Shown here: in pieces, positions 16,726-33,279 of the stretch
Layout: each line of letters starts with the position of its first letter
How positions within the stretch are numbered: the first letter of the stretch is position 1
Assembly (NCBI RefSeq): GCF_009914755.1
Contig: NC_060925.1
Source of the DNA: the human T2T-CHM13v2.0 reference genome, Homo sapiens
Length of the DNA stretch: 64,000 bases
Reading direction: 5' to 3' (one strand)
Position numbers and translations under genes: made by a program
The notes under the pieces: generated by a model
Told to the model about the DNA's origin: nothing
Seen by the model: the letters and a program-made list of their open reading frames with translations, nothing else
Database searches by the model: none

Positions 16726-17279
<554 letters not shown>

Positions 17280-21933: not shown

Positions 21934-23408
21934 CTATACAAAAAATACAAAAACTAGCCGGGCATGGTGGCACATGCCTGTAATCTCAGCTACTCAGGAA
22001 GCTGAGACAGGAGAATTGTTTGAACCCAGTGGGGCGGAGGTTGCAGTGAACTGAGATTCCACCACTGCACTCCAGCCTGGGTGACAGAGCGACGCTCCAT
22101 CTCGAAAACAAAACAAAACAAAAAAACCCCACCTGAAGGTTTCCAGTTCTGCCAGCAGTCTCCCACCCAAGCCCCAGAAGCAGACATTCCATTGCTGTGG
22201 GCCATGGACAGGCAGAAGGAAGCACCTCCTCATGGCAGAGGCCTACCCAGGAGAAACCCAAGGGAAGGCACTGCTGGGCTGGCCCCTCTCTGCCAAGGCC
22301 ATATTCTTTTTTTTTTTTGAGGCCAGTTTCACTCTGTCTCCCAGACTGGAGTGCAGGGGCACAATCTCGGCTCACTTCGACCTCTGCCTCCCCAGTTCAA
22401 GTGATTCTCCTGCCTCAGTCTCCTGAGTAGCTGGGATTACAGGAGTGTAGCATGCCTAGCTAATTTTTGTATTTCTAGTAGAGATGGGGTTTTGCCATGT
22501 TGCCCAGGCTGGACTCGAACTCCTTGCCTCAAGTAGTCCATCTGTCTCAGCCCCGCAAAGTGCTGGGATTACAGGAGTGAGCCACTGCACCCAGCATTTG
22601 CCAAGACCTTTGATGGCAGGCTTTTTCCAGGTGATCAGTCCTTGTCTGGTCTGGCTCTGCCCCACTCTCCTTCTCACCTAGTTGGAATCCCTAGCTACTT
22701 TTCAGTAGAGGAGAGTGTGTACCCCAATCCCAGCTTGGTTCAGATCTGCATTTAACTCATGGAACCTGGCTGCTCCCCAGGTCCTGAAGAAAAAAAGGGT
22801 CTCTCTGTGGGTATGATAAAGGATGGGCCTGTCCCCAGGACCCTGTGAGAGGGAAGCCCAATGTCCCACCAGGTTGGCAGGGCTGGGGAAGGGAAAGTGT
22901 TATGGCAGCCCCAAGGAAAAAAAGAGGCAGCAGAGGGAGCAGGACAGCACTCACGTGGAACTCATGCCACTGCCTGAGTGAGGGGAGGGAGGAGTGCACG
23001 CCAGTGACGTCAGGGGGCAGAGAGGCACAGTTCCAGGGCGGCTTTCCCCCTCACTTCCTGCCATGTTACTCTGATCGCCTCCAGGTGAGCCTGTCCACTT
23101 TGTGCCCAGGGGCCTGTAGAAAACCACAGCTCCCCATGGTTATGGCCCCAGGAGTGGGGCAGAGCAGGGAGGAGTCCTGGACAGAGGAGAGGCAGGGGCA
23201 GGAGGGAGTGGGCCTCAAACTCCAGGAGGGGGCCCTTCTCATGGGTCCTGCTTTCTGGCTTCTCCTTCCTTACCCCTGGGCTGATCACTCGGGGAAGAAC
23301 TGAGACAAAGTTTCTCACCCTCAGGCCCAAAGGGTTTAATTACTGGGCCCTTAGGGAGGTGTGAGCCCCCTGAAAGGATGCAAGGTTTTGTTTTGTTTTG
23401 TTTTTTGA

Positions 23409-28733: not shown

Positions 28734-29496
28734 TCAAAAACAAAACAAAACAAAACAAAAAACCACTAAAAGAAAGACTCCATTTCAAAAACAAAACTAA
28801 AACCAAAAACACAACACAAATGTAGTATACAAATGAAAATAATTACTGTGTTAAACACAGTTTCATAGAAAATAAAAGACCAATCAAATACAATAAGCTG
28901 CCTTTTTAGATGGGTGTTATTCTTCTTTCACAGCTAAAGAAACGGGCTCAGAGAATGTTATTTGATTGGACCGTGTTGCATCTCTGGACAGTGCAGCTGA
29001 GATCAGACTTTGTGTGTAACTCCACTAGCCTACCAGGGTGCCTCTCATAAAGGTAAGAAATGTAAATTTGGGCTAATATACAAAGTTGCCAGGGCAGCAC
29101 TGGGTCAATTCTACATACAGTACTTCTATGTTCATCAAGGGAAACCTTAAGGGAAAGTGAAAATGCTTCTAGAAGGCGACTGGACACCAGCGCCTTTGCT
29201 TGTTGCCTTTGGGCTCTTCTTCTAAGGCCAACAGTGACCTGAGATTATTGACTGGCTTTTCCAATCAAGTGGACAAAATGGTACCAAGGTCGCCAACATC
29301 AAACAAATTCACTTGAGGGCCTTATCTATGTCCTTTGAAAGACAAAACTGCTTTTGTAAAGGACACTGTATTTCAGAAAAACATAATCATATTAACAAAT
29401 AATAACACTGTAAAATGCTGATGTATTGAATGCTACTTTAGAAAAACATGCTCAAATCTAGGGAAAAAATTTGATACAAAACTCCGTATCAATTAT

Positions 29497-29524
29497 CTAG
29501 CTAGCTAGCTAGCTAGCTAGCTAG
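29497..29524. repeat. (CTAG)n tetranucleotide repeat
   Basis: ctagctagctag.. at the tail of an antisense Alu. Confidence 0.9.
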
Positions 29525-30539
29525 AGACATGCTTTCATTCTATTGCTCAGGATGGGAAGCAGTGGGATTATCATAGCTCACTGCAGCCTTGAGCTCCTGG
29601 CCTCAAGTGATCCTCCTGCCTCAGCCTCCTAACTAGCTAGGGCCACAGGTGGACACAGTTATGCCTGGGTTTTTGTTTGTTTGTTTTGTAGAGACAGGGT
29701 GTCACTACATTGCCCAGGCTGGTGTCAAACTTTGGAGTCTCGCTGTGTCGCCCAGGCTGGGGTGCAGTGGTGCGATCTCGGCCCAATGCAACCTCCGCCT
29801 CCCGGGTTCAAGTAATTCTCCTTTATCAGCCTCCTAAGTAGCTGGGACTACAGGCATGCGCCACCACGGCCGGCTAATTTTTGTATTTTTTGTAGAGACT
29901 GGGTTTCACCATGGCCAGGCTGGTCTCCAACTCCTGACCTCAGGTGATCCACCCGCCTCGGCCTCCCAAAGTGTTGGGATTACAGGTGTCAGCCACTGAG
30001 CCTGGCGGAGCACTTTCTTATGTTATTAAGTAGCCTAACCCAGGTGGGGCGCTGTCCCTCACACCTGTAATCCCGACAACTCTGATGGCCAAGGTGAGAA
30101 GATCGCCTCAACTCAGGAGTTCGAAACTGGCCCGGGCAACATAGCGAGCCCCCACCCCACCCCATCTCTAGAAAAAAAATACAAAAATTAGGCCAGGTGC
30201 ACACCGCGCCCGGCTAATTTTTGTATCTTCTGTAGAGACGGGGTTTCGTCATGTTGCCCAGGCTGGTCTCGAACTCCTGAGCCCAAGCCATCCATCCTCC
30301 CGCCTCGGCCTCCCAAAGTGCTGGGATTACAGTAGGGCCCAGCCAGCCTCATGTTTTATTGCACACCTGGATAGTTTTTTAATTTTTTTACACAGGGTTT
30401 ACCTCAATCTCGCAGGCTGGAATGCTGTGGTGGGATCATAGCTCACTGGAGCCTTGAATCTTTGGGTTCAAGTAGCTGGGGGGCTGAGGTAGGACTACAG
30501 AGATGGGGTTGCGCCATGTTGCTAGGCTGCTCTTGGCCT

Positions 30540-30915
30540 GAAGGGTCCTCCCGCCTCGGCCGCGCCATAGTTTTCTATTTTTGACCAACATAAACACTGT
30601 GCTGGGTCTGAATTTTTCAGCTACCCTTCTTCAGCCGGCAACACACAGGACCTGGCGGGGAGGTCGCTCTCACCAGTCCCCACTCTGACGAGAAGACCGC
30701 CCAGCTCCAGGCACCGTAGCGCCCCAGTGACGTAGGCGAACACCCGCGCCTCTGACGTCGCCAAAGGCCCACCGCTATGGTGTCGGCGAAGGCGCGCCCT
30801 TGTGACGTCACGGAAGGCGCGCCCTTGTGACGTCACGGAAGGCGCGCCCTTGTGACGTCACGGAAGGCGCCCCTTGTGACGTCACGGAAGGCGCGCCCTT
30901 GTGACGTCACGGAAG
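30540..30915 (-). promoter_or_regulatory. CpG-rich promoter with multimerised CRE (CREB/ATF) sites
   Basis: High CpG retention. TGACGTCA at 30803, 30828, 30853, 30877 and 30902; partial sites at 30686, 30728 and 30753. Confidence 0.8.
30788..30915. repeat. 25-bp minisatellite (GAAGGCGCGCCCTTGTGACGTCACG) x5, one unit 24 bp
   Basis: Units start at 30788, 30813, 30838, 30863 (1-nt deletion) and 30887. Confidence 0.97.
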
Positions 30916-31231
30916 CGCAAGAACCGCTTGAACCCGGGAGGCAGAGGTTGCAGTGAGCTGTGATCGCATCACTGCACTCCAGCCTGGGCCACACAGCAAG
31001 ACTCTGTGTAAAAAAAATTATTTTAGGCCATCGAACTGTATACCTGAAATTAGCAAATTTTATTATATGTAAATTGTATCTCAATAAAGCTATTTTAAAA
31101 TTATAAAACTTGGCTGGGCACGGTGGCTCACACCTGTAATCCCAGCACTTTGGGAGGAGAGGCAGGTCGATCACCTGAGGTCAGGAGTTTGAGACCAGCC
31201 TGGCCAACATGGTGAAACCCCTTCTCTACTA

Positions 31232-31479
<248 letters not shown>

Positions 31480-32826
31480 TTAAAAAGGGGGCCCAATTTT
31501 TTTACGGTTCAGTTTCTAGAACAGGAGTTATTCACCTGTAAGTCATTTGACGAATAGAGAGATAATTTTTTAGCACTCTTTCCAATTACTAGCATGTGTT
31601 TTCTTTGTCCCAAATCATGTTTAACACATCATTTATACTAAAAATACTAATTAAAACAATTATGGCATACTTCTAATAATGTTAAAAGTGAGTAATAATA
31701 CTTAACCTAAAAGGGTACATTTATAATACTACAGTTTCAAGTTTCAGAAAGCAGAGAGGGAAGGATATTTCAAGACTGGAATATTCCTGCCATTCCTTAA
31801 ATCACATTCCTCAGCATCTATTCATTTAACAAATATTTATTAAAGACCTGCTACACTCCAAACTCTTTCTATATGCTTCTGATCCATCAATGAGCAGAAA
31901 ACACAGATATGCATCAATTAGGTTAGTTTGCAGAATCTCAGTGGCTTCTAGCACAATAGTTCATTTCTGACCCATGAGACCTGACAATTACTGGTTAACT
32001 ACAGCTCTGTGACAGATTGTCATCTTTCTAGGACCCAGCCTGATGGAGTAGCCATTATCTGCAACTCTGAATAAACACATTGTAGTTCAGTCACATTTTG
32101 GAATACTATTCAGCAATGAAAAGGAACAAGGTGTCATAAACTCAAAAATGGGTGAACTCAAAAATACTACTGCTAAGTGAAAGAAGTCAGATGCAAAAGG
32201 CATTATGGCAGGATAAAGAACATGGTAAACCACACGCTGGCTCCTGTAACTTCTGCCTACAAGTAACAATGCTTTTGCTTCTATGTCAGCAATCAGACCC
32301 AGTCACGTAGCCATGTCCAAGGCCAATGGGGTGGGGAAAGGATAATCCTCCTGAGAGGGTCAGAGTATGTATTTGAATAATAGCGCAGTTTACCGGTTAC
32401 CTGTATATAGTAACATAGAAGGAAATAAGGGTTGTAGAAAAAAAGAATCGGGCGTGCAGGGTTGGAATGCAATGATACGGAGCAGGATGTGGTGTTAGAC
32501 AGTTCTCAGTTCTTCAAACCCCGAGAAGACTTGAAGGAGGTGAGGGAGTTGGCTAAGCAAAATATGAGGAAAGAGCATTTGAAGAAGATGGAACATCTAG
32601 AGCAAAGACCTTGGAGTAAGCGTGCCTGAGATGCCGGAGGAGTGGTAAGGAAGCCGGGGTGGCTGGAGTAGATTAGAAGCACGTAGTAGCTACTCCTCCT
32701 ACTGGAGGTCATCACAGCAATGGGGTGGGACAAACAAAGAGGACTTTGTCATCGTTGTAAGAACTTTAGTTTTTACACTGAGTGAAATGAGCTAGTACAG
32801 GGTTCTGAGCAGAGACTTATTATCTA

Positions 32827-33279
<453 letters not shown>

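What the first reader, a model, noticed from the sequence alone, without database searches (positions are those of the whole stretch)
30713..30915. Promoter minisatellite of CRE palindromes: a natural multimerised cAMP-response element with an age gradient
Seen: five near-identical 25-bp units, each with the 10-bp palindrome GTGACGTCAC and an ETS-like CGGAAG across the junction. Four also have the palindrome GGCGCGCC, and CpGs are retained (4 per full unit). Three decayed units continue leftward in exact 25-bp register (cores at 30728, 30753, 30778; 14-17/25 identity), so an old array has re-expanded recently at one end. The array is close to its own reverse complement, giving hairpin or cruciform potential. 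Known: TGACGTCA binds CREB/ATF and binding is blocked by CpG methylation. Inference: copy number could act as a heritable dial for cAMP/PKA-inducible lncRNA expression, differing between alleles and paralogues.
Basis: partly seen in the sequence, partly recalled or inferred. Interest (0 to 1): 0.75.

Follow-up and report, generated by a model that had tools for sequence, protein, structure and literature searches.

The report
Five-CRE minisatellite in LINC01347 promoter
A real, recently expanded 25-bp tandem repeat carrying five perfect cAMP-response elements sits just upstream of the LINC01347 start site; it was inherited from an old duplicated NUPR-type gene promoter and changes size between genomic copies, but nothing yet shows that it varies between people or tunes expression.

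Summary
TRF finds a 25-bp array at 30788-30915 (5.2 copies, 98% match). Each unit has GTGACGTCAC and CGGAAG. Three decayed units continue leftward in register.

New context: the array is the upstream part of a CpG-island promoter spread by segmental duplication. At least 17 other copies exist in this genome. In most, the array is followed by a CCAAT box and an exon of a Phospho_p8 (NUPR-type) gene; one chr7 copy keeps an intact 97-aa ORF. LINC01347 starts on the opposite strand, inside the decayed units.

Young-unit number differs among paralogues (0, 2, 2, 2, about 2.7, 4, 5, 10). The 10-unit chr10 array has lost the CRE, so expansion does not depend on it. The window array ends at a roughly 13-kb deletion junction inside an Alu.

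hg19 and CHM13 have the same array length. Three VNTR catalogues do not list it. Published bisulfite data place it in a hemimethylated candidate imprint control region.

Best reading: a methylation-sensitive CREB/ATF plus ETS platform of a TATA-less promoter, sized by slippage. The "heritable cAMP dial" is untested and not favoured.

The parts
30788..30915 (.). Young 25-bp array of five near-identical units (25, 25, 25, 24 and 25 bp) plus GAAG. It lies at -27 to -154 from the LINC01347 start site.
   Evidence: TRF; register table; sequence
30713..30787 (.). Three decayed units in the same 25-bp register (14, 17 and 14 of 25). They carry CRE half-sites and contain the annotated start site.
   Evidence: shared by all 7 close paralogues
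30803..30909 (.). Span of the five full CRE octamers TGACGTCA (30803-10, 30828-35, 30853-60, 30877-84, 30902-09). Each lies within the 10-bp palindrome GTGACGTCAC.
30811..30915 (+). Span of five ETS-like CGGAAG sites that abut each CRE (30811-16, 30836-41, 30861-66, 30885-90, 30910-15).
   Evidence: read from the sequence
30791..30897 (.). Span of four GGCGCGCC palindromes (30791-98, 30816-23, 30841-48, 30890-97). The fourth unit has GGCGCCC instead. Older chr7 copies carry a GC-box-like GGCCCGCCCC here.
30403..30761 (-). LINC01347 exon 1. The start site at 30761 lies inside the decayed units. 30403-30560 is antisense Alu.
   Evidence: hub annotation; sequence
30916..31016 (+). 3' part of an Alu fused directly to the array, marking the junction of a deletion of about 13 kb. 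The chr4:121.88-121.90M copy keeps the whole Alu and 12.9 kb between it and its array.
30552..30836 (.). Published candidate imprint control region ICR_103 (hg38 chr1:243101535-243101819): hemimethylated, DNase-sensitive and CTCF-flagged. It covers exon 1, the start site, the decayed units and the first two young units.
   Evidence: PMC9665137 supplement; coordinate offset checked
29076..30915 (.). Stretch shared with the close paralogues (2-4% substitution difference). Paralogy ends at the array.

Best explanation
The array is the proximal upstream module of a TATA-less CpG-island promoter. The promoter descends from the upstream, originally bidirectional, promoter of a NUPR-type (Phospho_p8) gene and was copied around the genome by segmental duplication.

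In this copy the NUPR-type side has been lost. The opposite-strand transcript, LINC01347, now starts inside the old units.

One 25-bp unit holding a full CRE, an abutting ETS-like site and a GC-rich palindrome was amplified to five copies. The likely route is replication slippage or unequal exchange, helped by the hairpin-forming palindromes.

Inferred function: when the central CpGs are unmethylated, the five CREs at -42 to -148 bind CREB/ATF-family bZIP dimers, probably together with ETS factors, and support LINC01347 transcription. CpG methylation blocks this binding, so the array would make the promoter methylation-sensitive.

Unit number is unstable over evolutionary time. It has not been shown to vary among people.
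For: Shown:
- The array and its motifs are real.
- Position relative to the start site follows from the hub annotation.
- The promoter stretch 30560-30915 has GC 0.62 and CpG o/e 1.08.
- At least 17 other copies exist in this genome (19 matches).
- In 5 of 7 close paralogues, plus chr11 and chr7 copies, the array is followed by a CCAAT box and a NUPR-like exon.
- The chr7:56.276M copy has an intact 97-aa ORF that matches Pfam PF10195 Phospho_p8 (E = 2e-17, 64 bits against a cut-off of 25).
- A 25-bp periodic array with ACGTCA-type cores is present in all 18 copies aligned.
- Young-unit counts are 0, 2, 2, 2, about 2.7, 4, 5 and 10.
- Hairpin potential is strong, z = -8.4.
- The window array ends at a junction with about 5 bases of near-identity, and the chr4 copy also ends at an Alu tail.
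- ICR_103 overlaps ENCODE DNase-hypersensitive and CTCF sites and is about 50% methylated in fetal brain, liver and kidney (PMC9665137 supplement table and methods).
- In blood of 98 people the strongest regional methylation effect spans -174 to +125 with its peak at -70. That maps to 30831, the central CpG of the second CRE (PMC12554007 Table 2).
- The window copy lost 1 consensus CpG by transition against 18 non-CpG differences. The other six copies total 39 against 132.

Established knowledge, recalled and not taken from any call:
- TGACGTCA is the consensus CREB/ATF site.
- Binding is blocked by methylation of its CpG.
- CREs act best within about 200 bp of a start site.
Against: - No binding, expression or reporter data were available. 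CREB/ATF and ETS occupancy is inference from motifs.
- The CpG-retention contrast is not significant (Fisher p = 0.083).
- The five units are too young for their intact CpGs to say anything about selection or methylation.
- The chr10 paralogue expanded a unit that has no CRE, so expansion needs no CRE function.
- The intact NUPR-type gene copy on chr7 has only 2-3 decayed units and no full CRE, so many CREs are not needed by the ancestral promoter.
- Intermediate methylation in short-read bisulfite data could partly reflect cross-mapping from paralogues only 2-4% different. Many differences are CpG-to-TpG changes, which are invisible after conversion.
- In the mQTL model all 77 of 77 SNPs were selected and the top SNP lies 1.77 Mb away. 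That reads as an unspecific fit.
Confidence: 0.55

Rival explanations
1. Neutral minisatellite. The array is a slippage-prone remnant of a duplicated pseudo-promoter. LINC01347 transcription comes from the CpG island as a whole, and the number of CREs has no consequence.
For: - Array size drifts in every lineage, including expansion of CRE-less units on chr10 and of a 24-bp variant on chr7:64.895M and chr7:57.119M.
- CRE cores are mutated in most paralogues: 0-2 intact, against 5 here.
- The array is twice a rearrangement breakpoint.
- No LINC01347 function tied to this promoter appears in the listing of 21 papers naming the gene. I read passages of three of them.
Against: - Five perfect consensus CREs within 150 bp of a start site in open chromatin (DNase flag) would be expected to bind abundant CREB/ATF proteins.
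- The window copy keeps 50 of 51 consensus CpGs, the most of any copy.
Confidence: 0.27
2. Epiallelic or imprint-like switch. The array is the core of an allele-specifically methylated region. One allele is methylated and CREB-blind, the other is open and transcribed.
For: - ICR_103 (= 30552-30836) meets the published criteria: at least 5 consecutive CpGs at 50 +/- 15% methylation, similar across three germ-layer tissues and across individuals (PMC9665137).
- ICR_103 was validated as differentially methylated between cases and controls on an independent array (PMC13286735 Table 3).
- Recalled, not from a call: tandem repeats are common in known imprinted differentially methylated regions.
Against: - No parent-of-origin gamete methylation is listed for ICR_103; that column is blank.
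- Cross-mapping from paralogues is possible.
- PMC12554007 reports variation between individuals, which fits a genetic or metastable state better than a strict imprint.
Confidence: 0.12
3. One reading: unit number is polymorphic in humans and acts as a heritable dial for cAMP/PKA-inducible LINC01347 expression.
For: - Unit number is labile between paralogues.
- Slippage potential is strong.
- Recalled, not from a call: synthetic multimerised CREs give graded cAMP responses.
Against: - hg19 and CHM13 have the same length: 851 bp and 49 CpGs between the same two CpGs.
- The array is not listed in three VNTR catalogues, although a different LINC01347 VNTR is.
- There is no TATA box. Recalled literature ties strong cAMP induction to TATA-containing promoters.
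Confidence: 0.06

Closest known systems
Functional promoter or 5'UTR minisatellites carrying transcription-factor sites, such as the TYMS 28-bp repeat with USF E-boxes, the ALOX5 Sp1/EGR1 repeats and the MAOA uVNTR (recalled)
   Same: A tandem unit of tens of bp within about 150 bp of a start site, each unit bringing a complete factor-binding site.
   Different: Those repeats are known to be polymorphic, with measured effects on expression. Here neither has been shown. The factor site is also a CRE, and I found no described promoter VNTR of that kind.
Tandem 18-bp CREs of the human glycoprotein hormone alpha-subunit (CGA) promoter, and synthetic 4-6x CRE reporters (recalled)
   Same: Directly repeated full CREs close to a start site.
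   Different: CGA has two copies in a TATA-containing, strongly cAMP-responsive promoter. This array has five copies at 25-bp spacing in a TATA-less CpG island, each fused to an ETS-like site and a GC palindrome.
Bidirectional CpG-island promoters with ETS/GABP, CCAAT/NF-Y, NRF1 and CRE motifs (recalled class)
   Same: In the paralogues the array lies between a NUPR-type exon on one strand and the lncRNA start on the other. A CCAAT box follows the array, and the chr7 copies also have GCGCATGCGC.
   Different: In the window the partner side was removed by rearrangement, so only the lncRNA side remains.
Tandem-repeat-containing imprinted differentially methylated regions
   Same: A CpG-rich direct repeat at a lncRNA promoter, reported as hemimethylated across tissues (PMC9665137).
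   Different: No gametic parent-of-origin mark is reported and no allele-specific expression is known.
Other CRE-bearing minisatellites in this genome (chr6:171.380M, 35-bp unit; chr17:0.184M, 28/56-bp unit)
   Same: Arrays with at least 5 full CREs. The chr6 array also has GTGACGTCAC.
   Different: They lie near chromosome ends, have longer units and an unknown relation to promoters. The window array is the most tightly spaced of the 7 loci found.

Membership tests
Minisatellite / VNTR | Head-to-tail repeat of a 10-100 bp unit | tested here: met
   TRF: period 25, 5.2 copies, 98% match
Minisatellite / VNTR | Copy number variable among individuals | tested here: inconclusive
   Only two haplotypes could be compared, and indirectly: hg19 and CHM13 have the same length and CpG count. 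The array is absent from the held supplements of three catalogues. No pangenome was available.
Minisatellite / VNTR | Copy number variable among paralogous or evolutionary copies | tested here: met
   0, 2, 2, 2, about 2.7, 4, 5 and 10 young units in 8 copies. Old chr7 copies have 2-7 units.
CREB/ATF target promoter | Full palindromic CRE TGACGTCA | tested here: met
   Five copies, each within GTGACGTCAC
CREB/ATF target promoter | CRE within about 200 bp of the start site | tested here: met
   CREs lie at -42 to -148 from the RefSeq start site at 30761 (hub annotation)
CREB/ATF target promoter | Unmethylated central CpG | tested here: inconclusive
   Literature only: about 50% methylation (PMC9665137). 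The peak of methylation variation between individuals falls on the CpG of the second CRE (PMC12554007).
CREB/ATF target promoter | CREB/ATF occupancy | not testable with these tools
   No ChIP data were on hand
cAMP-inducible promoter | TATA box near -30 (criterion recalled from the literature) | tested here: not met
   30786-30796 reads GC-rich with no TATA
Bidirectional CpG-island promoter | CpG island | tested here: met
   30560-30915: GC 0.62, CpG o/e 1.08, 37 CpGs
Bidirectional CpG-island promoter | Two divergent genes within 1 kb | tested here: not met
   The window copy lacks the NUPR-type exon. Paralogy ends at the array, followed by Alu and unrelated sequence. The feature is met in 5 close paralogues.
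Imprint control region | About 50% methylation, stable across tissues | tested here: inconclusive
   Reported as candidate ICR_103. A paralogue cross-mapping artefact is not excluded.
Imprint control region | Opposite methylation in sperm and oocyte; parent-of-origin expression | not testable with these tools
   The parental-origin column is blank for ICR_103

The most novel reading that the evidence does not exclude
The CRE array is the sensing core of a hemimethylated epiallele. One allele is methylated and cannot bind CREB/ATF; the other is open and drives LINC01347. The recent expansion of a palindromic, CpG-dense unit is what created this allele-specific, imprint-like or metastable state at one member of a duplicated promoter family. 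That would give a natural test bed for how tandem CpG-rich repeats seed allelic methylation, because paralogues with 0-10 units serve as built-in controls.
Probability: 0.1. Interest if true: 0.7.

Novelty: new member of a known kind. Interest (0 to 1): 0.4.

Why it matters
If the five CREs are occupied, this locus is a natural 5xCRE promoter whose output should depend directly on CpG methylation. It also comes with a ready series of paralogous promoters carrying 0 to 5 intact CREs and 0 to 10 units. That would allow a clean comparison of how unit number and CRE integrity affect transcription and methylation.

It also records a CRE-bearing, hairpin-prone minisatellite acting repeatedly as a rearrangement breakpoint in a segmental-duplication family.

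The caveat is that LINC01347 has no established function, and no human polymorphism of the array has been shown.

Tried and rejected
- My first guess was that the right-hand partner exon belonged to the PSPH/CCT6A promoter. Searches with TIGR00338 and PF00118 placed exons of those families at chr7:56.175-56.181M and chr7:56.214-56.221M (gene names recalled). That is about 55 kb from the family member at chr7:56.276M, so I dropped the idea. The exon is NUPR-type instead.
- A first Pfam scan used the wrong coordinates and found nothing. I repeated it in the right frame.
- I tested whether the chr4:121.90M copy is specially close to the window on the left flank. It is not: all seven close copies differ by 2-4% in a star-like pattern. 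The two copies are linked by the shared right-flank structure, not by distance.
- CpG retention as evidence for germline hypomethylation of the window copy shows only a trend (p = 0.083).
- Literature searches. No paper holds GTGACGTCAC together with "tandem repeat". Minisatellite + TGACGTCA + CREB returns only an insulin-gene paper. VNTR + "cAMP response element" + "copy number" + "promoter activity" returns only two meeting-abstract volumes. The NUPR1L promoter and pseudogene search gave nothing relevant.
- VNTR catalogues. PMC8024321 (10 of 11 supplement files readable) lists only another LINC01347 VNTR. PMC11701250 (4 files) and PMC8275641 (11 files) have no entry for the gene or the coordinates. 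Long supplement files may have been cut when stored, and bioRxiv supplements are closed, so absence from these lists is weak evidence.
- The selection-scan paper PMC4776707 only names LINC01347 in a list.

Full report
**1. The observation.** Tandem Repeats Finder reports one strong array at 30788-30915: period 25, 5.2 copies, 98% matches, score 249. In register, the units at 30788, 30813, 30838 and 30887 are identical to the consensus. The unit at 30863 is 24 bp because one base of GGCGCGCC is missing. TGACGTCA occurs five times in the array, each inside GTGACGTCAC. The whole 64-kb window has 8 such octamers against 0.22 expected, and 0 of 100 shuffles reach 8. Two of the three octamers outside the array lie in Alu sequence and one in unique sequence. 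CGGAAG follows each CRE directly. The array holds 19 CpGs.

Three further units to the left score 14, 17 and 14 of 25, against 4-8 of 25 for the eight neighbouring registers. A score of 14 or more is reached at only 34 of 63,666 other plus-strand positions, and at 20 of 9,130 GC-rich 25-mers. As single-stranded DNA the array folds at -50 kcal/mol, against -26.8 +/- 2.8 for 200 shuffles (z = -8.4).

**2. Where it sits.** By the hub annotation, LINC01347 exon 1 is 30403-30761 on the minus strand. The young array is therefore at -27 to -154, and the start site lies inside the decayed units. The stretch 30560-30915 has GC 0.62 and CpG o/e 1.08. There is no TATA box at -25 to -35. The unique promoter stretch is bounded on the left by antisense Alu sequence, which forms part of exon 1. 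On the right it is bounded, directly at 30916, by the 3' part of a sense Alu.

**3. It belongs to a duplicated promoter family.** The window's genome could be searched. The stretch 30560-30920 has 19 matches. Seven are close copies: chr4:122.76M, chr10:38.45M, chr4:121.90M, chr1:223.18M, chr1:0.20M, chr7:45.93M and the window itself. They differ by 2-4% in substitutions in a star-like pattern. There is also an 84% copy on chr11 and at least ten chr7 copies at 73-81%. The search scores only its best candidates, so these are lower bounds.

In five close copies, plus chr11 and the chr7 copies, the array is followed by a CCAAT box, GC-rich sequence and an exon. At chr7:56.276M that exon is an intact 97-codon ORF matching Pfam Phospho_p8 over the whole model (E = 2e-17). 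From recall this is the NUPR2/NUPR1L locus. The name was not tested. In the younger copies the frame is broken.

The array is therefore the upstream element of a NUPR-type gene promoter, and LINC01347 is the opposite-strand transcript of one duplicated copy.

**4. The array is old and unstable.** All 18 copies aligned carry 25-bp-periodic units with ACGTCA-type cores. After the three shared old units, the eight younger copies carry these numbers of young units:

| Copy | Young units |
|---|---|
| chr11 | 0 |
| chr1:223M | 2 |
| chr1:0.2M | 2 |
| chr7:45.9M | 2 |
| chr4:121.90M | about 2.7 |
| chr4:122.76M | 4 |
| window | 5 |
| chr10 | 10 |

Intact full CREs number 5 in the window and 0-2 elsewhere. 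In nine of the ten chr10 units the core reads GCGGCGCCG(G/C) instead of a CRE. Expansion therefore does not depend on the CRE. A pair of old chr7 copies has separately amplified a 24-bp variant. The intact NUPR-type gene copy has only 2-3 decayed units and no full CRE.

**5. The right end is a breakpoint.** Paralogy with the family stops at the array. The window's right flank, 31440-32840, has one other copy, 98% identical, at chr4:121.882M. That copy lies 13 kb from the chr4:121.90M promoter copy. On chr4 the array is followed by an Alu tail and 12.9 kb, whose first 1.85 kb was searched and, apart from interspersed repeats, is found only on chr4. Then comes a complete Alu whose 3' third equals window 30916-31010 (alignment from 30912, 97.2%).

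The simplest reading, which is inference, is that the chr1 lineage lost about 13 kb between the array end and the middle of that Alu. The two sequences read almost alike for about 5 bases at the join. The earlier junction of the array to an Alu tail is a second rearrangement at the same spot. Hairpin-prone palindromic repeats offer a plausible cause.

**6. Variation between people.** This could not be measured directly.

PMC12554007 (Table 2 and text read) gives the hg19 region 243,264,696-243,265,547 as 851 bp with 49 CpGs, spanning -501 to +350 from the start site. In the window, the CpGs at 30411 and 31262 are 851 bp apart and enclose exactly 49 CpGs. So hg19 and CHM13 carry the same array length.

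The adVNTR catalogue (PMC8024321 supplement) lists a different, Alu-derived 32-bp VNTR for LINC01347, not this array. That VNTR maps to window 16867-16933, which also confirms my hg38-to-window offset. Two further catalogues have no entry.

**7. Methylation.** The imprintome study (PMC9665137; abstract, methods and supplement table read) lists candidate ICR_103 at hg38 chr1:243101535-243101819, with LINC01347 as nearest transcript. It is flagged for ENCODE CTCF and DNase I sites and has no parental origin given. This maps to 30552-30836, and both edges fall on CpG cytosines. It covers exon 1, the start site, the old units and the first two young units. The study's criteria were at least 5 consecutive CpGs at 50 +/- 15% methylation, similar in fetal brain, liver and kidney and among individuals.

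ICR_103 was among 14 candidate regions validated as differentially methylated in a liver-cancer case-control study (PMC13286735 Table 3, passage read).

In whole blood of 98 people, the strongest regional effect at this promoter spans -174 to +125 with its peak at -70. That is position 30831, the central CpG of the second CRE. In that model, however, all 77 of 77 SNPs were selected and the top SNP is 1.77 Mb away, so a specific genetic cause is not shown.

Cross-mapping from paralogues could inflate intermediate values.

Within the family, the window copy has lost only 1 consensus CpG by transition against 18 other differences. The other six copies total 39 against 132. This is a trend only (p = 0.083).

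**8. How unusual it is.** Three full CREs spaced 8-40 bp apart occur at only 7 loci in this genome (11 pattern matches per strand). Clusters of five or more occur at three of them: the window (25-bp spacing), chr6:171.38M (35 bp) and chr17:0.18M (56 bp). I found no paper describing this array or any CRE-bearing promoter minisatellite.

**9. Mechanism and verdict.** What is shown is a recently amplified, hairpin-prone CRE/ETS/GC-box module immediately upstream of an annotated lncRNA start site. It lies in a CpG island reported to be DNase-accessible and partly methylated.

What is inferred is that unmethylated units bind CREB/ATF dimers, probably with ETS factors, and support transcription, that methylation of the CRE CpG switches this off, and that unit number changes by slippage.

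The two reference haplotypes agree in length, the promoter lacks a TATA box, and the family shows expansion without any CRE.

I file this as a new member of a known kind, a promoter minisatellite carrying factor-binding sites, and rate it of moderate interest.

Noticed in passing
window 16867-16933: An Alu-derived tandem repeat of 31-32 bp (2.1 copies) inside a LINC01347 exon. It also contains TGACGTCA. The adVNTR catalogue lists it with alleles of 32-96 bp (PMC8024321 supplement). It was not tested for eQTL there.
   Followed up: partly
L003 (chr10:38.45M copy), array region: Nine of its ten young units have the core GCGGCGCCG(G/C). Relative to the CRE, every change runs from A/T to G/C. The chr4:122.76M copy shows intermediate states. 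This may be GC-biased conversion inside a minisatellite.
   Followed up: no
L014-L016 (chr6:171.380M) and L018 (chr17:0.184M): Two other minisatellites with at least five full CREs lie near chromosome ends. The chr6 array has a 35-bp unit and also contains GTGACGTCAC. The chr17 array has a 28/56-bp unit and 18 CREs within 3 kb.
   Followed up: partly
L005 1937-2140 and the same place in L002 and L006: In the young paralogues the broken NUPR-type exon carries a new short ORF in another frame (start MASASCSPGRPLAS...), which ends at a GT donor. From recall this resembles the annotated N-terminus of PSPHP1/PSPHL near SEPTIN14. Not tested.
   Followed up: no
window 30916-31016 versus chr4:121.883-121.897M (L030, L031): About 13 kb present in the chr4 duplicate is missing from chr1q44. 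The junction lies between the array end and the middle of an Alu.
   Followed up: yes
window 23005-23012: A lone full CRE in unique, GC-rich sequence inside a LINC01347 intron (context GCCAGTGACGTCAGGGGGCAG).
   Followed up: no
LINC01347 locus as a whole: A PCA-based selection scan of 1000 Genomes data names LINC01347 among loci whose SNPs are most correlated with population axes (PMC4776707, passage read). Mapping artefacts from segmental duplication are possible.
   Followed up: no
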